This document shows positions 8,995 through 51,482 of a stretch of 64,000 nucleotides of DNA, in pieces. Position 1 is the stretch's first letter; the number at the start of each line of letters is the position of its first letter. Where the stretch lies: positions 90,458,001 through 90,522,000 of the forward strand of contig NC_043000.1 in NCBI RefSeq assembly GCF_006345805.1, written 5' to 3'. This stretch comes from Octopus sinensis. Lineage: Eukaryota. The position numbers and the translations under genes were made by a program. Below the pieces are notes generated by a model that worked only from the letters and a program-made list of their open reading frames with translations, made no database searches and was not told the origin of the DNA.

Positions 8995-10125
8995 CTTAAT
9001 TGGTACTTAATTTATCGACTCCAAAAGGATGAAACGCAAACTTGACCTCGGCGGAATTTGAACGTAAAGCCGGAAGAAATGCTGCAAAGTATTTTGTCCG
9101 ATTGCTAACGAATCTGCCATCTTGCTGCCTTGGTAATAGTTTCAAATTTTGGCACAAAGCCAACAATTTCGGGGGAGGGTGTAGTCGATTACATCAACCC
9201 CAGTGCTTGAAGAGTACTTAATTTATCGACTCCAAAAGATGAAAAGCAAACTTGACCTCGGCGAAATTTGAACTCAGAACGTGAAGCAGGAAGAAATTCC
9301 ACGAAGTATTTTGTCCGTTGTGCTAACGAATCTGCCACCTTGCCGCCTTAATAATATTGGGTTGTCAGGAAAGTTCGTGTCGATTTATAGTAGCTTACCT
9401 TTCGACTTATTTTAGAACATGGTTGAGTCCATAAAGTAGGATTTGACTACACCTCCATTTAGAGCACATTTTAAGCTATCTTTTCGTGGAAGAAGGTTTA
9501 TGTTCCTATAACATGTGTTAATTTTGTAACCCTTTAAAATGGAAGATGAGAAAGTTCATTTTCGGCACTTGATGCTTTGGGAACCAGACAAAAATTGCTG
9601 CAGCTTGGCTGGGATGTGTTACCACACCCTCCATATTCATCAGATATTGCTCTTTCGGATTTCCACTTATTCAGGTCTCTGCAGAATTGTCTTAGTAGTG
9701 AAAATTTTAATTCCCTGGATGATGCAAAAAAATACCTTGATGAATTCTTTGCCATGAAACCAACTCAATTCTGGGAAGAGGGTATTTTCAAGTTAAAGAA
9801 AAGATGGAGACGCATTGTGCAACAAAATGGTTCATATTTGGTTGATTAAGAATGTAATGGCAAGTATTTATTGATCTAATTATTTCCTTTAAAAATCGGC
9901 ACGAACTTTCCGGGCAACTCAATAGTTTCAAATTTTGGCACAAAGCCAGCAATTTCGCGAGAAGGAACTAGTTAATTACTACTACTCCTGTAATCAAGTG
10001 GTTCTTATTTCACCGACTTCGAAAGGATAGGATGGGATGGGAAACACAGTCGACCTCGGCGGAATTTGAACTCAGAATATAAAGACGGGCGAAATGCGGC
10101 TGAGCATTTTTTCTGGCGTCACCTT
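8995..10125 (-). mobile_element. Three head-to-tail copies of tRNA-derived SINE family A (array interrupted by a mariner)
   Basis: Shared core TTTATCGAC..AAAGGATGAAA..GACCTCGGCGGAATTTGAACTCAGAA. Minus strand carries A-box-like GAGCTGGCAGAATCG and B-box GAGTTCAAATTCC. Confidence 0.85.
9357..9922 (+). mobile_element. Internally deleted mariner retaining the transposase C-terminus
   Basis: TIRs TTGGGTTGTCAGGAAAGTTCGTGTCGATTT / AAATCGGCACGAACTTTCCGGGCAACTCAA with TA TSD. MEDEKVHFRHLML is joined to LLQLGWDVLPHPPYSSDIALSDFHLFRSLQN. Confidence 0.92.
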
Positions 10126-11697: not shown

Positions 11698-11750
<53 letters not shown>

Positions 11751-11896
11751 CCTTTGTACTAAAGGTGCAAGGCCTGATATTTGGGGGTAGGAGGATAGTT
11801 GATTACATCGACCCCAGTACTCAACTGGTACTTAATTTATCGACACCGAAAGGATGAAAGGCATCCTTTCATCATGGATTTCATTTGTTTTACAGC

Positions 11897-11957
<61 letters not shown>

Positions 11958-11970
11958 AATAATAATAATG

Positions 11971-12022
<52 letters not shown>

Positions 12023-14799: not shown

Positions 14800-15441
14800 T
14801 AAGTAGCAAGGGCATGCGTTTGCAATCCAGGAACAGGACATATCAACCAAGTACCTGATGCACAAAAGGGATTGAGATGCAGGAAAAACAGAAAACTGTG
14901 ACAACCGATGCAGACTTTGTGAAGTTATCACTGAAGACATCACCCACATCATATGCAGTTGTCCGAAATAGTAAACACGGTATTATCTACCGATGAGACA
15001 TGATGTTGCCAGGATACTGCATAAGGAGATCCGCTGGAAGGGTAACATTAAGACCAAAGAAATAAAAATCCACAGTATGGTGGAAGCCATAGCTACTCAT
15101 AATATAAAGGAGTACTGACAAAATCTCCCAGTGGAAAAACATCAATAAAATATAAAATGTGACAACCGATGCATACTTTGTGGAGTTCATACTGAAGATA
15201 TCACGCACATCATAAGCAGTTGTCCGAAAATGTCATCACGATGAGACATAATGTTGTAGCCCATGATGTAGCTAGGACAATTATTGGGATCCTGGGATAT
15301 GTAACACACTGTTTAAATACCAATCTTGAGAAATTAGGCTTCTCAAAAGCAGAAAGGAGAAAGCTAATTCGAGGACTACAGATCCAGTCCATCACTGGAA
15401 CTGTAAAAATCTGTAAAATTTTCCAGAAGTTTATCATTTAA
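14800..15441 (+). mobile_element. R4/Dong-like LINE fragments: duplicated CCHC knuckle plus C-terminus of the REL endonuclease domain
   Basis: AFAIQEQDISTKY..CRLCEVITEDITHIICSCPK..MRHDVA at 14815-15010, a second knuckle copy at 15158-15232, then IIGILGYVTHCL..LQIQSITGTVKICKIFQKF. Confidence 0.8.
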
Positions 15442-15466
15442 ATATATATGAACATGTCTAGATATA

Positions 15467-16721
15467 GTTCTATATTTAAGAGACCTATAGTAAATCGTAG
15501 AGGTTCAGCATGTCATCCACTGAGCCGCTTCCTTGTGGATATAATCAGTCCATTAGCAGGAAAGTCAACATCGAAATGTTGACCTTCTGTGTAGAAACTA
15601 CCTACTTCAGTATGGACACTGATATATATCGACAAGAGGAGGGTTTAGCTATGGGTTCGCCATTATCACCAGTAATAGCCAATATATACATGGAATACTT
15701 TGAAAATTTGGCTTTAGGATCAACACCACTAAAACCAACACTATGAATACGATATGTTGATGACACCTTTATACTCTGGCCCCACCAGGAAGATGTCCAA
15801 GTGCTGTTAGATCATGTGAACTCAATAAAGCCATCCATACAGTTCACAATGGAAAAAAGAAAAAGACAATCAGCTGGCATTCCTAGACGTATTAATAACA
15901 CGCAACAAGTATGGATTCAGGACATTCGTATACCGCAAGCCGATCTTTACTGGAAGATACCTCAACTTCAATTCCCACCATCCATACAGTGTAAAAAGAG
16001 GGATTGCTCAGTGCCTAAGAAACACCGTGCAAAGAATATAAGTAGCGATCGTGATACACACCACAAAGAAATGATCAAGCTTAATAACGATCTGTTAAGT
16101 AATAACTACCCCCAAACTATACTATCCGCTCCAATTAAGAAGAAGAGAGAGGATGAGGCCAATAAAATTTCCACAGTCTGTCTACCCTGTGTGAAAGGCC
16201 TCTCCGAAAAGATACAAAAGATATGCGGCCCATATGACATCAGGATAGTATTCAAGAGTAATACAACACTTCCCAAATGTCTCCTTCGATTAAAACCACC
16301 AATAGAAGAGAATATGACCAAAGACTGCGTGTACTCCATCGCATGCAACTGTGTTAGGTTATAGAAAGGCGAAACATGCCGCCCCCTCAAAATAAGGGTA
16401 GACGAACTTCGCAAATCTGTGACATGAGGATATATTGATAAATCGTGTATAGCTGATCATATATGGAAAAATGGAGACCACGTCCCCCTGTGGGATGAAG
16501 TTAAAATAATAGAGAACACCACTGGAAAATAAGAAAACTAAAAGAAGCAGCACATATGCTAGGACACAACAACCTCTTAAGCAGACCGAGTGCAGATATG
16601 AGCAGCATATGGGAACCGGTATTAAGGAAGGATAGGAAAATATTAGATTTATAAGCCCTAAAATTCACTCATAATTGTTCACGGGCATATGGCGTAGAGC
16701 GCGGGGTACTAACCCCAAGAT
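15467..16721 (+). mobile_element. Penelope-like retroelement (RT + GIY-YIG endonuclease), 5'-truncated and decayed
   Basis: RPIVNRRGS, TYFS..YRQEEGLAMGSPLSPVIANIYMEYFE, RYVDDTF, IQFTMEK, AFLDV, VYRKP..TGRYLNFNSHHP, and GIY-YIG-like VYSIACNC...KGETCRPLKIRV. Confidence 0.92.
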
Positions 16722-21330: not shown

Positions 21331-21430
21331 NNNNNNNNNNNNNNNNNNNNNNNNNNNNNNNNNNNNNNNNNNNNNNNNNNNNNNNNNNNNNNNNNNNNNN
21401 NNNNNNNNNNNNNNNNNNNNNNNNNNNNNN
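21331..21430. other. Assembly gap (100 N)
   Basis: Run of N. Confidence 1.
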
Positions 21431-42442: not shown

Positions 42443-43289
42443 AATAAATACGAGATACAGGAATAAAAATGCTATAGAGTATGTTATGGGAGATATATGA
42501 ACGGTGAAAACAGCTCACAGACTAAAACATCCTGAAACTGGACACGACAACCATCACTATTTAATTTTGATGAGAAAGAAGAAAACATCAATAAGGCATT
42601 TAAGAAAAATATTTAATATTCTAATTTAATACCAGAAACGACAGTAAAATGACTCATTGTTAAAGATAAAAATCATTCTAACCTTAAAACTAAAAAAAAA
42701 CTAAAAAAAAAAAACAGAAGAAGCAGAAAGGAAAAAAGACCTTTGGTAAAAAATGCCTAAACAAGCGCCTATCTACACTAAGAAACATTCTTGTTGAACT
42801 TTCAATAAAGAATAAATTTACACTTATTAGAAAATAAAATGTGTTCTTTGGTAAAGGAGTAGAAAAAATATGAAAATTTTTCCATGATTTAAACCAGCGA
42901 CAGGTCAACAAAACGATAATTGAAAATTGCAGGAAAAGAGTAAGGAATTTGAGAATGGTATGGAAACGTTAACTTCGTATAAATTTGAACTATCAAGAAT
43001 TGCTTAATATCAATAACAGTGAAAGCTAATGAAATGTCCTGAAGCCACAATATTAAGTAAATAATTCATGAGATACTAGACAAATGGTATACGTTATGTT
43101 ATATATTTATATAAACATTATAATATTGATTTCTAAGTAAACCTAGTTCTCACCTAACTACCACACACTGAGAAAATCAGATGAGTTTGAAAATATCCCT
43201 AGTAACATCAAACTAATGAGAAGGAGATCAAGTCTCCGATGTTGTCTGTAATAATTTTAGAATATAACCCGATATTGATGAGTGGGTTT

Positions 43290-43589
43290 AAGTCGAAGTG
43301 AGGCAATTTGGCGCAGCTGCTTGAACGCAGATAATTTGGCATGAGAACAGTAAAGGTGGTGCCTATAATAATTGGTGCGTAGGGAACAGTAAGCAAATAT
43401 ATAGACAAATAGCTGAAGGAGATTGAAATAGAATGCCCGGTAGAGCTCCTGCGGCAAGCTTGTCTCTTAGGGACAGCAGGGATTATCAGAAGGGTTCTAA
43501 GCTCTTGAAAGACTGCTGAAAACTTGTGGATACCTAAGGTTACTCGCATAAATCCTACCAGGAATAAGACCGAACCTGAGCCAAACTAA

Positions 43590-44430: not shown

Positions 44431-44823
44431 TTTGCTGATCTAAACAATGATAAGGACGATGACTTCCCACTGTCAGCTCGAACATTGTCATCTACAGTAG
44501 CATCAAGGAAGACGCTACGCGGTCACTCTACACCTAAAAATAACAACCAAATCTCTCTCAAATAATGCCTTTAACAGAAGAAATACTAAAAATGTGACTC
44601 TATTCATGATGTGTTTTCGAGTACTCCGAAAACGTAATTTTTGATATGTAAAACGATAAAGTCACGCCTGGAAGGCCTTTGATCACAATTTTGTTTGATT
44701 ATGGTCCCCTTGGGGGTTAAACAACAACATCAACATTGTTCTATATTTAAGTGATGAGAAATTATGTGCATTATTTACATTATTTACATTCGACGGATAT
44801 TTGTCCTCATCTTTTTTGTTGTT

Positions 44824-44869
44824 ACCACAACGTTTCGGCTGATATACCCTCCAGCCTTCTTCAGGTGTC
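44824..44869 (-). ncRNA. Minimal type-I hammerhead ribozyme motif (family 1)
   Basis: GACAC-CUGAAGA-A-GGCUG-10nt-CAGCC-GAAA-CG-UU-GUGGU; one mismatch in stem I. Confidence 0.7.
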
Positions 44870-45158
44870 TTGGGGAAATTTCGGACCTGGATTCTCATTC
44901 CTAGGGTATTTTTCGATATAATAATAATAATAATAATAATAATTATTATTATTGTTATTATTATTATTGTTATTATTATTATTGTTATTATTATTATTGT
45001 TGAGGCCACTGCTTGGCATCGTCCTCGGAATCTTGGGCTTAGTAGACCGCACTCTTAACCCAAAGATTCCGATTTCGATTTCAAACAACAACAACAACAA
45101 CAACAACAATATCGAAAAATACCTTAGGAATGAGAACCCAGGTTCGAAATTTCCCCAG

Positions 45159-45204
45159 GACACCTGAAGAAGGCTGGAGGGTATATCAGCCGAAACGTTG
45201 TGTT
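45159..45204 (+). ncRNA. Minimal type-I hammerhead ribozyme motif (family 1)
   Basis: GACAC-CUGAAGA-A-GGCUG-GAGGGUAUAU-CAGCC-GAAA-CG-UU-GUGUU: canonical CUGANGA/GAAA/UH core with paired stems I and II. Confidence 0.8.
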
Positions 45205-46439
45205 AACAAGATGAGGGCAAATAACCGTCGAATGTAAATAATGTAAATAATGAACACCAACATCATAATCATTTCTAACAATTACCGAAACTCCATCCAA
45301 TTTTGAGACAAAGGTGCAATCGACCACAATACTTGGTCATTACCGAACCCTTAAGGATGAAATTTAAAGTTGACTTCTAGTTGGATCTAAACTCAGAACT
45401 AAAGAGATTTAACAAAGTACCACAAGTCCGACACTTTAACAATTTTACAATCTTGAATACAATAGTAATATTAACAATTTTCCTACAGGTACAAGGTCAA
45501 AAATTATACGCAAAGAGAAAAGGTCGATCATATTGATCCCGGTATTTGTGTGGTAGTTTATTTTATTGACCAAATAAGGACGAAATGCGAAGATGAACCC
45601 TATGGGTTTCGAACTCAGAACACGTTGTTCAGACTAGTGCTCTATCAATTGTATCATGTACTACTCTTAATATGATGGTAATAAAAAATCTTAGCCGTCA
45701 CTCGCAAGAGCGTAAGTCTTAGTATAGTAACTTGTACCACTTTTGCGCTAATTGTTTTAGATATCTTTGTAGTTGAGGGCAGGTATAGACACCCTCTTAA
45801 TCATTTCATTCTTGACTCAAAGGGACACGAGTATATTATAGCTGGAGGAAGATTGAAAGCTATATCAGCACGTAATTATTTTCAGCTGAGTAAACAAGGG
45901 TAACACGAAATGAAGAGCCTTGTTCAAGGACACAAAGTGCAATCCGGTCCTAGAATTGAATCTATGACCTTGCGATCACGAGCTCAACTGCTTAATCTCT
46001 ACACCACGCACCTTCACATACGAGTATGACGGTATTAAGAAAAATAATAATTATTATCATAACCAACACAACCTTCCTCTCCATAATAACAACAATAATA
46101 ACGCTTAATGCAAATAGAAATTTATTTATTTATTTATTTGTATTTTCTATTCACTACTGCACTCTGCGTCTTGGTCGGAGTATTCATCGAATTTTCGAGA
46201 TCGCTGATTTACACAGAGGCTGTGAACTACATCCGTATAGACGGAACTTCTTTTTTTACGACAAACCCCCAACCATCCTTGCCTCTCTCCATAAAAAACA
46301 AAACCAAAAACATCAACAACTATAAATTAACAAAAAAACTCCTTAAACATTTATATACACCAAATAGCAAAACAAAAAAAAACTCTGCCTAAACCAAATG
46401 TGATGTTATGGCGGTATGTGTGAAGGACAGCGAGATGTT

Positions 46440-47034: not shown

Positions 47035-47210
47035 GAGAGAGAGAGAACTGTTGTGTGAGGAAGTGAGGAAGAATGTTAGAAGTGAGAACTGAAAAGGGTG
47101 AAAAAGGATAATGTAAGAGATAGATAAATAGATGAATTGAGAAAGTGAAAAAAGGGAAGGGATAAGAAGAGAGGATAAGAGAGAGAGTGAAGAGAAGCAG
47201 TGATAGGGAG
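46638..47210. repeat. (GA)n/(TG)n purine-rich tract
   Basis: Direct reading. Confidence 0.9.
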
Positions 47211-47479
47211 AGTATCACATGGTGTACAAACGGAAGCATGTGCACAAATGTGTGCTCACCCAGTCACATTCATAAAACCGACGCACACATCAGACGTACG
47301 CAAGTACATATATGCATAACAGAAGGTATACGTATACTCTTGTGTCTGAGCAGTGCCTGAGTTGGAAGACAAAGTAATTTCAAGGCCAAGACTACTGACT
47401 TTCAACTGGTAAAGTCCTTCTTGATGGGAAAATGATTCGCCGGGTTATATGACTTACTTCTATAAACAAGTAGAAGTAA

Positions 47480-48240
47480 TTCTTTCTACTATAAACACAA
47501 GGTCTGAAATGTTTTGGTAGGTGAGGGGGGGTTCAATTACATCGACCCCAGTGCATAACTGGTAGTTATTTCTTCGACCCCGAAAAGATGAAAGGTAAAG
47601 TTGACCGCGGCGGAATTTGAACTCAAAACATAAAGATTAACGAAATGCCGCTAAGCATTTCGCCCGGTGTGCTAACGATTCTGCCTGCTCACCGCCTTAT
47701 AAACAAGCAGTAATGATATAATAGGTCTGGTAGGGGCCATGACGCGCCACCACCACCACGAAGAAGAAGAAGAAGCAATAATACTATGACATAGGTGGCG
47801 GGCTGGCAGAATCGTTGGCACACCGTGCAAAATACTTAGCAGCATTTCGTCTGTCTTTACGTTCTGCGTTCAAATTCCGCCGAGGTCGACATTGCCTTTC
47901 AACCTTCTCGGATTCGCTAGAACCATTGAACCATTGAACTCTGTGGATCGATGTAATCGATTAATTTACCACCTTTTAAAAATTGCTTGCCTTGTGCCAA
48001 AATTTGAAACTATTATTATTATTAAGGTGGTGAGCTGGCAGAATCGTTAGCACACCGGGTAAAATGCATAGCGACATTTCGCCCGTGTTTATGTTCTGAG
48101 TTCAGATTTCTCCGAGGTCGACTTTGCCTTTCATTTTTTTCGGGATCATTAAAATAAGTACCAGTTGAGCACTGGGAATCGGTATAATCGACTTACACCC
48201 TCCCCAGAACTTGTTGGCCTTGTGCCAAAATTTGAAACGA
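47480..48240. mobile_element. SINE-A cluster: one minus copy (47480-47698) head-to-head with two tandem plus copies (47793-48010, 48024-48240)
   Basis: GGTGG(C/T)G(G/A)GCTGGCAGAATCGTT heads and TTGTGCCAAAATTTGAAAC tails. Confidence 0.88.
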
Positions 48241-48433
48241 ATAATACTATGACATCTACAAGTGATGTGTTGGCTTTAAGTATTAGGCTTATTTTCTATC
48301 CAAGAAAGTTCACTGCAATTAACTGCTGCCTTATTCAGCGAAAATATATTTTCCCCTTTATCTGTTTAAGGCCACGATGAACTGAATATAATATGTACAG
48401 GTGTAGTAGGCAGCAGAGAGGGGAGGTAATTAA

Positions 48434-48531
48434 CTGACTACAACGCACTTATAACTGACCACAATGCCCTGACCACAACGCACTTATAACTGACCACAAT
48501 GCACTGACCACAACACACTGACCACAACACA
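48434..48531 (+). repeat. 14-bp minisatellite CTGACCACAA(C/T)GCA, six copies
   Basis: Units at 48434, 48455, 48469, 48490, 48504 and 48518, two followed by CTTATAA. Confidence 0.9.
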
Positions 48532-48654
48532 CTTTTTGCCCTATTGGTAGAGGTGATGCGTATGCATCATTAGACATGGTCTCCTTATTTTTGCTGATTT
48601 GATTCAAGTTAGAATATCAGTTAAGTTGCTATTATTTCTGTTTATTTTTGTGTT

Positions 48655-48960
48655 TTAAAGTAGAGCAGCGGTCAATGATACACTTTCTGTAAATAAAATG
48701 TACCAGGGGGCTAAAATACACAAAGTCTTTCAGCAAAGGCTGTTTGCATATGAATTGAAAAATTCAACGCTGGTTGTACAAGTGTCATGCATTAGGAACA
48801 GCCAGGTGGGGAGGGGGAGTCGACGATGTCCCAAATGAATCTGTGACATACCTAACTTTACTGAACAGACAGATAACTATAATTGATTGATGAAGCGGCA
48901 AATATGTAAATTAGTCATGGTTCTGGCAATGAAATCCTCCGTAACGGATTTGGCTATGGT
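48655..48960 (+). pseudogene. Highly decayed mariner transposase N-terminal fragment
   Basis: EQRSMIHFL.., IEKFNAGCTSV..EQPG.., ITI..DEAA..ISHGSGNEILRNGFG across several frames. Confidence 0.5.
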
Positions 48961-49078
48961 TAAACGACAAGTTTAATTGGTGTTTTATGTTCGAACCTTC
49001 AGGACAGTGACTGGAGGAAGATCACATTTTGTAATGTCACTGTAACTAATTTTCCTTGCAATAAGGAAGGGGTCGGAG

Positions 49079-49192
49079 TTCCACTTATTTCTTATTTTTA
49101 TTTTCCTAAAGTTTTCGTTGCGTCAAGACTATTGAAAAGGTTGCAAGACGCAACGAAAACTTTAGGAAAATAAAAATAAGAAATAAGTGGAA
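49079..49192. repeat. Perfect 46-bp inverted repeat with 22-nt spacer
   Basis: 49079-49124 is the exact reverse complement of 49147-49192. Confidence 0.95.
49129..49165 (+). ncRNA. Hammerhead-like motif with U3:A8 core covariation (family 3)
   Basis: CUA-UUGAAAA-G-GUUGC-AAGAC-GCAAC-GAAA-AC-UU-UAG. Confidence 0.55.
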
Positions 49193-49494
49193 ATTTTACC
49201 GGTGAGTGTGTTACATTATAAGGCACAAAAATAAAATGACTCTTCCCAGACACAACAGAATATGCTTCAACACGCGAACCAAATCCAAAGACAAAAAGTG
49301 TTTATGGTTTCATTTAAAAGCAATTTGGAAGTTATTACTCCCCAAGAAAACATATAGCTCCATCCACTGCACAATTGGAATTTCGGTCGAATTAGGTCCT
49401 ATCAGCTTCGGTTGTGTTACAAAGTCTCCATCCAACACAATTTGTTAAGTATACTTAATTAATTATTTTGGGTAATGTTTAACATGGCTTCTTA

Positions 49495-50555
49495 TTAGGC
49501 ACAAGAACAGCAATTTTGAGGAGTCGAGGCTAGTTAAAACCATCGATCCCAGTACTTGACTGATACTATAATTTACAAACTCTGGAGGGAGGAAACTGGA
49601 AAGTGACTCCAGCGGAAATTGAACTCAAAGGATTTTGTTTCACATGTAAAGAATACGAGTGGTATGACAGCAATATCGAAATGACGGCCTTCAAATTGTT
49701 AAACTCACGAGTTCTGTCTGGGAAGACAACCTACAACGAATTTTAGAGCAAAATTTGCAATTTTCTTTTTAAATCTATATACGTTTAAACAATAGAACCT
49801 TACTATCATTTGTGTCACATCCTAGAAACTTCATTCAAAAGAAGAAAAAAAACCGAACGTTTCACTTACAATAATCCCAAAAGAGAAGTTGCTAGAAGAA
49901 ATACTACAAGGCATTTTCTGACGGTTTAACGATTCTGCAAGTTTGCCACTTTAAGTAATTCTTTCTACTATAGGCACAAGGCCTGGGGGAGCGGAGCTAG
50001 TCAATTTCAAGGATACCCAGTTCTGGACTGGTACTTCTTTTAGCGGCCTCAAAAAGATGAAAGGCAAAGTCGACTTCGGTGACATTTGAACTCAGAACGT
50101 AAGGAACGGGATAAATGCCGCTAAGTATTTTGTTCGATGCGATAACGATTCTGAGCCCATTACATCGACCCCGTATGATGAAAGACAAAATCGACCACGA
50201 TGGTATTTGAAATCATAGCCTATATATTTCTAAAATAGTATCTCCCTACCTACCAACATTTTGTGTCACGTTCCAGAAATTTTATTTAAAAAAAAGCAGT
50301 AACGATTGTGCCAGCTCGATGCTCTATTTAAATGAAGTTTTGGTTTCAATTTTTGGCACAAGTCCAGCAATTTCAGGGTTGGGTGAAGTCGAATTCACCG
50401 ACCCCAGCGATCAACTGGTACTTATTTTATCGACGCCGAAAGGATGAAAGGCAAAGTCAACCTCGGCGGAAGTTGAACTCAAAACGTAAAACTCGCCAAA
50501 TGTCGCTAAGCATTTTGGCCGGCGTGCTAACGATTCTGTCATCTTGCCGCCTTAA
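49495..50555 (-). mobile_element. Cluster of SINE-A copies and fragments
   Basis: Core motif repeated at least four times. Confidence 0.75.
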
Positions 50556-51482
50556 GCTGAAATATGGAGACATAAAAATATAATTTTGTTCACAAACAAA
50601 TGCCCTGAGGTATCATAGAAATGATGATGAGTGAAAGGATGTATGAGTAAGTTGTTTTCATTAATTATGGTCTTATACGTGGATAGTTACTAAGAAAATA
50701 AATATGGAACCCACTTTATTGATGGGCCTCGTATACTGAAAAGGATTATATTTTGAAGAGAACGGCATTAAACGAGTAAGCTGTTTTTCATATAATTATA
50801 TTCAGTACCGAATCCTATGAAAATTCCACGAGTTTCGCTAATATGGAATTAATTAATTTATAGACTCCATGGTGTGTTACATAATAAGTCCCCTTTGTAG
50901 TAATGCAAAGCTATTACTATTGTGGCGGTAAGAGCGGGTTGGCAGAAAGTGAAGAACATTGATGTAAATATGTCTTGCTGTATTATGAACCATAATTCTT
51001 ACATATTAAGTTTAAAACCCGTCAAGTTCACATCTACATTTCAATCTGACTGAAATAAATTGTAGCCACAATACTCTTTACCTTATAAAAATCAACAATG
51101 AACTTAGTAATTAAATATATCTTGTGTAAGACGTATGCCTCTGGTGAGTATTGTTAGCTGAAGCGATTCTGCTGCATAAATCCTCCGTGACTTCGGTAAG
51201 TCTTCGGCGTGTAAGATGATCCCATTTCTATTTGAGTTTAATTATCATAGAGTAAGAAGTACCTAAGATATTCAACTATCAATTCATTGCTGCTGGGTTC
51301 TTTTATACTAGAAGCGTACTAATATGTTTATCAGGTATTTTGAGAATGCGATGAAGAGAAGTTATCTTTTAAATTCCTTATGACGCATGAGCGACATTTT
51401 GAATGCAGTCTTTAAAAAGAAAATGAAACACTATTTGCGTTTAGGCAAAAATAAATACTTATTTAGAAACGAATATATATAT

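What the first reader, a model, noticed from the sequence alone, without database searches (positions are those of the whole stretch)
49079..49300. Hammerhead variant with U3:A8 core inside a perfect 46-bp hairpin
Seen: CUA-UUGAAAA-G-GUUGC-AAGAC-GCAAC-GAAA-AC-UU-UAG has the same spacing as the family-1 motif but UUGAAAA replaces CUGANGA. Known: positions 3 and 8 form a tertiary pair, and U3:A8 is a compensatory, tolerated variant. A double change that preserves the pair is less likely from neutral decay. The upstream perfect inverted copy looks like a recent Penelope-type 5' inversion and would sequester the 3' half of the ribozyme. Standard CUGANGA searches would miss it.
Basis: partly seen in the sequence, partly recalled or inferred. 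Interest (0 to 1): 0.7.

Follow-up and report, generated by a model that had tools for sequence, protein, structure and literature searches.

The report
Decayed hammerhead ribozyme inside a hairpin
A short stretch matches an already published variant of the hammerhead self-cutting RNA and is likely a decayed leftover of a Penelope-type mobile element, predicted to be locked inactive by a perfect inverted duplication, so it is ordinary rather than new.

Summary
49079-49124 and 49147-49192 are perfect 46-nt inverted arms. 49129-49165 fits the published minimal-hammerhead descriptor with a U3:A8 core; no match this good arose in 1845 simulated windows. U3:A8 is not new: it is reported in natural hammerheads (PMC3088659) and in about 1,300 Schistosoma minimal hammerheads (PMC4209133). 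One relative was found, as a translated antisense frame (P0001). It keeps U3, A8 and stem II, changes loop II, and has lost A15.1, so U3:A8 looks inherited rather than a fresh compensatory change. Against function here: positions 15.2/16.2 are A/C, so helix III cannot dimerise; stem I has 3 bp; the hairpin is predicted to abolish the fold. No Penelope RT or endonuclease was found nearby, no target-site duplication, and no second copy in the window. The head-to-head inversion fits Penelope self-priming, but host snap-back repair gives the same geometry. Verdict: likely an inactive remnant of a Penelope-type minimal hammerhead; Penelope membership not shown; low interest.

The parts
49079..49124 (-). 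Inverted copy (left arm) of 49147-49192; carries the 3' strand of stem II, the GAAA box, the cleavage triplet and the A-rich flank in antisense
   Evidence: I4, 46 nt, 100%
49121..49124 (+). Junction bases CGTC, complementary to GACG 49147-49150; candidate fold-back primer of 2-4 nt
   Evidence: junction print; P0001 residues 107-108 are compatible with these bases being native to the repeat (G 49122, T 49123 and A 49125 fixed by codons; 49121 and 49124 undetermined)
49129..49165 (+). Minimal type I hammerhead-like motif with U3:A8 core; predicted cut site after 49162
   Evidence: descriptor read in PMC4209133 Fig. S7
49159..49160 (+). Positions 15.2/16.2 = A/C, not complementary; no helix III self-duplex predicted
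   Evidence: (AACU no duplex, family-1 ACGU -1.7 kcal/mol)
49147..49192 (+). Right arm of the inverted repeat, native orientation of the repeat
   Evidence: P0001 similarity runs through and beyond it
49193..49226 (+). 34-nt one-sided extension shared strongly with P0001 (0 forced substitutions over 49182-49226); possible Penelope 'tail'
49227..49292 (+). Weaker continuation of similarity to P0001; blurs the tail boundary
   Evidence: 7 forced substitutions in 30 nt over 49227-49256, null fraction 0.0003, range chosen after viewing; 0 of 150 null alignments reach the score

Best explanation
49129-49165 matches the published minimal hammerhead descriptor with a U3:A8 core and is likely the decayed ribozyme of a 5'-truncated Penelope-type repeat copy, predicted to be inactive because a perfect inverted duplicate of its 3' half out-competes the fold. 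Steps: (1) shown: motif, arms and spacing. (2) Shown indirectly: a related sequence exists elsewhere over about 49121-49292 and keeps U3, A8, A9 and stem II. (3) Inferred: in the parent element the motif lay in the pseudo-LTR and would have cut as a dimer or with protein help, as described for other metazoan Penelope hammerheads. (4) Inferred: the antisense strand ending near 49121 folded back, its terminal bases pairing at 49147-49150 over a 22-nt loop, and was extended about 42 nt to 49192, which gave the left arm; I put Penelope self-priming during insertion slightly ahead of later host repair (about 55:45). (5) Predicted: any sense transcript that includes the arm forms the 46-bp hairpin, and even without it the A/C at 15.2/16.2 removes the dimer helix.
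For: Descriptor match including two features outside the descriptor that PMC4209133 lists as typical (extra nucleotide after A9; G10.1-C11.1) and an A-rich 3' flank as in its consensus. 0 equally good matches in 1845 simulated windows. Without the arm (49125-49192) stems I and II are predicted at about 0.83 and 1.0. P0001: two linked frames, E 8e-13 against the window; forced changes fall 2 of 4 determinable positions in loop II, 0 of 7 in stem II, 1 of 4 in stem I (partner still pairs), 1 of 11 in the core. The same window holds a canonical minimal-hammerhead pair in head-to-head layout. Head-to-head inversions with junction palindromes and a 31-bp one-sided tail are described for Penelope elements (PMC3846280; PMC8557442); here the strong similarity runs 34 nt past one arm.
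Against: 15.2/16.2 are A/C, whereas 40 of the 41 two-nucleotide motifs in Fig. S3 of PMC4209133 are complementary (my hand count of 56 machine-read rows, 15 with a longer helix III set aside). The only relative has A15.1 changed to U, a core position. Loop versus structured positions is not significant (Fisher p 0.10). Similarity continues to about 49292, past the supposed tail end. No RT or GIY-YIG match in 47201-50502 or in nearer frames; no direct repeat of 7 nt or more between 49039-49078 and 49193-49500; no second copy in the window. Only one relative in four protein searches, which is few for a repeat family.
Confidence: 0.6

Rival explanations
1. The hammerhead likeness is accidental: an unrelated low-copy repeat or conserved non-coding stretch carries a 5-bp hairpin between A-rich runs, and a repair event made the inversion.
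For: The U3:A8 core is A/T-rich and is the commonest chance class (26 loose hits in 1845 windows). Helix III is not palindromic, the relative lacks A15.1, and the best-kept stretch (49182-49226) lies outside the motif and spans a splice-donor-like CG/GTGAGT at 49200-49207.
Against: 0 of 1845 simulated windows give a match of this quality; the extra nucleotide and G10.1-C11.1 are present; 0 of 7 determinable stem II positions change in the relative.
Confidence: 0.2
2. The motif is a real hammerhead remnant, but the inverted arm was made later by host snap-back (synthesis-dependent microhomology) repair at a break, not by Penelope integration. This overlaps the best explanation and differs only in step 4.
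For: Snap-back priming at short inverted repeats turns an insertion into part of a longer inverted repeat (PMC5728401 passages). The arms are 46 of 46 identical while the family-1 arms are 140 of 155. The native upstream sequence of the relative is not found in the left flank (best 7 forced substitutions in 24 nt) and no target-site duplication is seen, which fits a deletion junction.
Against: Most insertions in that study were under 15 bp; this one is about 42 nt. The arm stops 34 nt short of the drop in similarity, the length of a Penelope tail.
Confidence: 0.3
3. The inverted arm is a library or assembly fold-back artefact; the motif stands free in the real genome.
For: Perfect identity over 46 nt with a short loop is also what fold-back chimeras look like (general knowledge); the window has a 100-N gap at 21331-21430, so it comes from a scaffolded assembly.
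Against: Sequence on both sides is unique in the window and does not keep mirroring; similar inversions are real in Penelope biology. Reads were not available.
Confidence: 0.1
4. It is a working ribozyme switch: the hairpin holds it off, and transcripts that start inside the 22-nt spacer or just before it fold and cleave.
For: Stems I and II are predicted to form when the RNA starts at 49121-49125 (0.50-0.83 and 0.98-1.0); U3:A8 ribozymes are active (PMC3088659); a Penelope hammerhead cleaved only with its protein (PMC11167929).
Against: No dimer helix; single minimal motifs showed no cleavage in vitro (PMC4209133); the relative has lost A15.1; no tandem partner in the window; nothing points to a start site in the spacer.
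Confidence: 0.06

Closest known systems
Minimal type I hammerheads (min-HHR) of metazoan Penelope-like elements, U3:A8 families Sm3 and Sm4 of Schistosoma mansoni (Cervera and De la Pena 2014, PMC4209133)
   Same: UUGANAA core (the Fig. S3 row S. mansoni(4), tied to a Cercyon element, has the same UUGAAAA), extra nucleotide before stem II, G10.1-C11.1, GAAANNUH, 3-bp stem I, A/U-rich 3' flank, occurrence as a lone motif.
   Different: 15.2/16.2 are A/C rather than complementary; no linked ORF found; the 3' half is duplicated in antisense directly upstream; only one relative known here.
Natural U3-A8 hammerheads (Perreault et al. 2011, PMC3088659)
   Same: The C3-G8 pair covaries to U3-A8 in several natural examples and was already known to be active in vitro.
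   Different: The candidate has no real helix III and no tested activity.
Inverted pseudo-LTR structures of Penelope elements (Arkhipova et al. 2013, PMC3846280; PMC8557442)
   Same: Head-to-head 5'-truncated inverted copy next to the direct copy, short complementarity at the junction, possible 30-40-nt extension on one side.
   Different: The arm is only 46 nt (pLTRs there are about 180-220 bp), no target-site duplication or ORF was found, and similarity to the relative does not stop cleanly at the tail.
Snap-back SD-MMEJ repair junctions (PMC5728401)
   Same: Fold-back priming at a short inverted repeat gives a longer inverted repeat at a junction.
   Different: The insertion is longer than most reported there; the original left partner is unknown, so the closing microhomology cannot be tested.
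Family-1 minimal hammerhead pair in this window (44833-44864 minus, 45164-45195 plus)
   Same: Same spacing and head-to-head inverted layout.
   Different: Canonical C3:G8 core, palindromic ACGU helix III, both arms hold the whole motif, arms 90% identical; no sequence similarity to the candidate.

Membership tests
Penelope-type minimal hammerhead (PMC4209133) | First core box CUGANGA, or the published U3:A8 variant | tested here: met
   UUGAAAA 49132-49138; variant described and printed
Penelope-type minimal hammerhead (PMC4209133) | Stem I 3-7 bp, stem II 3-7 bp, loop 2 of 3-10 nt, second box GAAANNUH | tested here: met
   3 bp, 5 bp, 5 nt, GAAAACUU (descriptor)
Penelope-type minimal hammerhead (PMC4209133) | Extra nucleotide between 9 and 10.1; G10.1-C11.1 pair | tested here: met
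   G 49139; G 49140-C 49154
Penelope-type minimal hammerhead (PMC4209133) | Palindromic 15.2/16.2 allowing a dimer helix III (typical trait, not part of the descriptor) | tested here: not met
   A/C; no duplex predicted. 40 of 41 two-nucleotide published rows are complementary (hand count). The relative may have A/U or A/C (undetermined). It is therefore filed as a damaged, not an intact, example.
Penelope-type minimal hammerhead (PMC4209133) | Multi-copy family with compensatory changes in stems | tested here: inconclusive
   One relative, read through codons only; one pair-keeping change in stem I; Fisher p 0.10
Penelope-type minimal hammerhead (PMC4209133) | Self-cleavage after position 17 as dimer or with extended helix III | not testable with these tools
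   Needs an in vitro assay
Rfam hammerhead families | Covariance-model match | tested here: inconclusive
   No hammerhead family among 6 matches at E up to 10 for 49121-49300, but the canonical family-1 motif is missed too (4 matches, none a hammerhead); 0 matches at gathering score in the window
Penelope-like element | Linked ORF with PLE reverse transcriptase and GIY-YIG endonuclease | tested here: inconclusive
   No Pfam family at E 0.05 in six read-through frames of 47201-50502 and no PDB match for one frame; the same scan also missed a mariner-like remnant, so sensitivity is low. Lone truncated copies often lack the ORF. Not filed as a member.
Penelope-like element | Adjacent inverted 5'-truncated copy, head-to-head | tested here: met
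   Geometry; not specific to Penelope
Penelope-like element | 30-40-bp tail on one of the inverted ends | tested here: inconclusive
   Strong similarity ends 34 nt past the arm but weaker similarity runs on to about 49292
Penelope-like element | Target-site duplication (often, not always, present) | tested here: not met
   No exact direct repeat of 7 nt or more between 49039-49078 and 49193-49500
Snap-back SD-MMEJ junction | Pre-existing inverted primer repeat at the inner junction | tested here: inconclusive
   2 bases fixed and up to 4 compatible from the relative; rests on two matching residues
Snap-back SD-MMEJ junction | Microhomology with the other break end | not testable with these tools
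   The unrearranged allele is not available

The most novel reading that the evidence does not exclude
An undescribed, probably cephalopod, Penelope family carries U3:A8 minimal hammerheads, and its inverted pseudo-LTRs arise by fold-back priming inside the ribozyme's own loop II and stem II. This locus would then be a base-resolved snapshot of that step, and each such insertion would silence its own ribozyme and yield a perfect hairpin RNA.
Probability: 0.12. Interest if true: 0.5.

Novelty: new member of a known kind. Interest (0 to 1): 0.2.

Why it matters
If the best explanation holds it matters little: one more damaged minimal hammerhead of a published variant. My searches for octopus or cephalopod together with hammerhead ribozyme listed no paper on a U3:A8 family in cephalopods, so a family consensus would extend the known range modestly; the library lacks most subscription journals, and Repbase and Dfam were not searched. 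The part with some value is the junction. How Penelope elements make head-to-head inversions is still inferred (self-priming, PMC3846280), and a family with many such junctions would let that model be tested at base resolution.

Tried and rejected
Second copy in the window: none by blastn, nhmmer, a 27-nt pattern with 3 mismatches (1 match, itself) or a profile back-translated from P0001 (its residue 92-108 profile ranked the true locus only fifth at E 0.78, so that test is weak). The 16-of-17 match at 50872 as a downstream pLTR: rejected, 23 of 58 random windows scored 30 or more against 30.5. The 16-of-17 match at 9655: part of a mariner-like coding remnant, unrelated (label recalled). Rfam: only microRNA hairpin matches below gathering score among the 150 of 381 rows listed; short-region scans uninformative. 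Bacterial and archaeal genomes: 0 matches to a 28-nt pattern. Protein searches: 1 hit, then only P0001 itself, then no candidate for the frame 49206-49445; searches covered near lengths only. Pfam: no match better than E 0.04 for 15 short frames and E 0.12 for 13 sequences; 0 families for 9 read-through frames, which were 9 of the 33 planned, so most of 41-47 kb and 50.5-57.7 kb stayed unscanned. ESM Atlas: no usable hit for 48659-48835; the frame that runs through the motif stayed unchecked there. A conserved coding exon at 49121-49201: disfavoured, since the two matched blocks are out of frame with each other. Helitron 3' end: rejected, hairpin is followed by TTAG rather than CTRR (rule recalled) and similarity continues past it. 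Supplement file S1 of PMC8557442 held none of three 17-18-nt probes. Paper searches for U3A8 (0 papers), U3-A8 (1 paper) and a SINE motif (0 papers). No eukaryotic genome collection was on hand; metagenome and viral contigs were not searched; bioRxiv supplements were not seen and could hold relevant consensus sequences.

Full report
What is there. The window is repeat-rich DNA: interspersed self-matches cover 44% and tandem repeats 17%, and a 100-N gap lies at 21331-21430. The dominant short repeat around the finding resembles an octopus SINE; that label is recalled, and a paper search for one of its motifs found nothing. The inverted repeat is as described: 49079-49124 and 49147-49192, 46 of 46 complementary, 22 nt apart, -70.2 kcal/mol with 0 of 200 shuffles as stable. 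The motif spans 49129-49165: stem I CUA/UAG, core UUGAAAA, one extra G, stem II GUUGC/GCAAC around AAGAC, GAAA, A/C at 15.2/16.2, U16.1, U17. The cut would fall after 49162.

Is it more than chance? I re-coded the minimal-hammerhead descriptor printed in Fig. S7 of PMC4209133 for six 3:8 core types. The real window gives three hits: the canonical pair at 44864(-) and 45164(+), and the candidate. The loose U3:A8 form gave 7 hits in 300 shuffled windows and 26 in 1845 Markov windows; none of the 1845 gave a match as good as the candidate for any of four pair-keeping cores. The criteria for 'as good as' were set from the candidate, and the nulls do not model repeats, so this is strong but not decisive.

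Is U3:A8 new? No. Perreault et al. (PMC3088659; abstract and section 8 read) report C3-G8 covarying to U3-A8 in several natural hammerheads and note earlier proof of activity. Cervera and De la Pena (PMC4209133; parts 1-3 of 4 of the text and the whole supplementary PDF read as machine text, figures not seen) found U3-A8 with a Cercyon Penelope element, about 1,300 hits in S. mansoni, mostly lone motifs; their row S. mansoni(4) has the same UUGAAAA core. They list four typical traits beyond the descriptor. The candidate has the extra nucleotide and G10.1-C11.1, cannot be tested for family covariation, and fails the palindromic 15.2/16.2. By my hand count 40 of the 41 rows with a two-nucleotide spacer are complementary there (56 rows, 15 with a longer helix III set aside).

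A relative. The window has no second copy. A protein search with an antisense frame returned one hit, P0001, an unnamed 116-residue translation. It matches the minus strand in two linked frames (E 8e-13 against the window). Residues 74-88 need 0 substitutions over 49182-49226, and residues 92-108 need 7 over 49121-49171; none of 20,000 random positions did as well in either case. Weaker similarity continues to about 49292 (0 of 150 nulls). Upstream of 49121 it does not match the left arm (10 substitutions in 24 nt, null fraction 0.07) or the left flank. So the right-hand sequence is the native repeat and the left arm is the added piece. Codon constraints fix U3, A8 and A9 in the relative. Forced changes: 2 of 4 determinable positions in loop II, 0 of 7 in stem II, 1 of 4 in stem I (C to U opposite A or G, still pairing), 1 of 11 in the core (A15.1 to U); loop against structured positions gives p 0.10. 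This leans towards a structured RNA but is one comparison seen only through codons, and the A15.1 change counts against function in that copy. Three further searches found no other relative.

Would it cleave? Without the arm, stems I and II are predicted at about 0.83 and 1.0; once the RNA starts at 49110 or earlier both are 0.000; the hammerhead fold costs about 63 kcal/mol against the hairpin (-7.3 versus -70.2). AACU gives no self-duplex while family-1 ACGU does. Single minimal motifs did not cleave in vitro, and an anole Penelope hammerhead cleaved only with its protein and was not needed for insertion in vitro (PMC11167929; passages and part 2 of section 3 read). The folding test has limits: family 1 also fails to fold in one local context (stem II about 0.05 for 45150-45230). 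Activity at this locus is unlikely.

How did the inversion arise? The two copies face head to head. The last bases of the left arm (49121-49124) are complementary to 49147-49150 by construction, and the relative suggests that at least two of them were there before (this rests on two matching residues). A fold-back of the antisense strand over a 22-nt loop, extended about 42 nt, gives the structure. Arkhipova et al. (PMC3846280; passages and Discussion read) infer self-priming on an antisense template for Penelope inversions and describe a 31-bp tail on one inverted end; PMC8557442 (passages) says the same of a 30-40-bp tail. Strong similarity to P0001 ends 34 nt past the right arm, which fits, but the weaker run to 49292 does not give a clean end. 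Host snap-back repair (PMC5728401, passages) predicts the same geometry, with most insertions under 15 bp there. A fold-back artefact cannot be excluded without reads.

Link to Penelope. Not shown. Pfam found nothing in six read-through frames of 47201-50502, and nothing convincing in nearer frames; PDB gave no match for one frame. The same Pfam scan missed a mariner-like remnant at 9343-9942, so these blanks are weak. A short stretch at about 48567-48590 recalls a Penelope RT motif (recalled, unsupported by any search). No target-site duplication of 7 nt or more was found. Rfam misses both this motif and family 1. Penelope families are active in Octopus vulgaris (PMC13282606, passages) and 235 hammerhead 1 matches are reported in giant squid (PMC6962438, passages), which matters only if the recalled host label is right. 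Also seen as passages only: PMC7151607 and bioRxiv 10.64898/2026.07.22.740005; neither changed the verdict.

Verdict. It is built like a Penelope-type minimal hammerhead and is most likely a damaged, sequestered remnant of one (0.6). It meets the published descriptor, fails the palindrome trait, and is not filed as part of a Penelope element. The U3:A8 core and the inverted layout are both in print. Interest 0.2. The boldest reading left open, an undescribed family whose inversions are primed inside the ribozyme, has probability about 0.12.

Noticed in passing
window 44764-44919 (-) and 45108-45256 (+), approximate: Head-to-head pair of a canonical minimal hammerhead repeat (family 1): CUGAAGA core, ACGU helix III, arms 140 of 155 identical, separated by (AAT)n/(ATT)n and (AAC)n runs. 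A cleaner Penelope-type example than the finding itself.
   Followed up: partly
window 14900-15499 (+): Decayed 3' end of a non-LTR retrotransposon: Pfam zf-RVT E 3.5e-6 with two stretches.
   Followed up: partly
window 43266-43586 (+): Broken frame that recalls the C-terminal end of R4/Dong-type non-LTR elements (label recalled); no Pfam match.
   Followed up: partly
window 9343-9942 (+): Mariner-like transposase remnant (motif recalled) between two SINE copies; Pfam gave 0 families.
   Followed up: partly
window 48659-48838 (+): 59-codon open frame with a pyrimidine tract and AG upstream and a donor-like CAG/GT at 48803-48807; exon-like; no Pfam or Atlas hit.
   Followed up: partly
window 48567-48590 (+): Eight residues that recall motif A of Penelope reverse transcriptases (recalled); not supported by Pfam or PDB.
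   Followed up: partly
window 49200-49207 (+): Splice-donor-like CG/GTGAGT in the middle of the stretch best conserved with P0001.
   Followed up: no
window 49432-49471: Imperfect 40-nt palindrome centred on AAGTATACTT, at the end of the unique stretch.
   Followed up: no
window 47533-50556: Many direct and inverted copies, about 65-90% alike, of one SINE-like family; recalled as an octopus SINE, not confirmed.
   Followed up: partly
window 48419-48534: Small tandem array of 14- and 21-nt units (D4 and D11) at the outer edge of the left flank.
   Followed up: no
window 11698-12020: (AAT)n and (ATT)n arrays in inverted arrangement around a SINE fragment; they give the other long perfect inverted repeats of the window.
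   Followed up: yes
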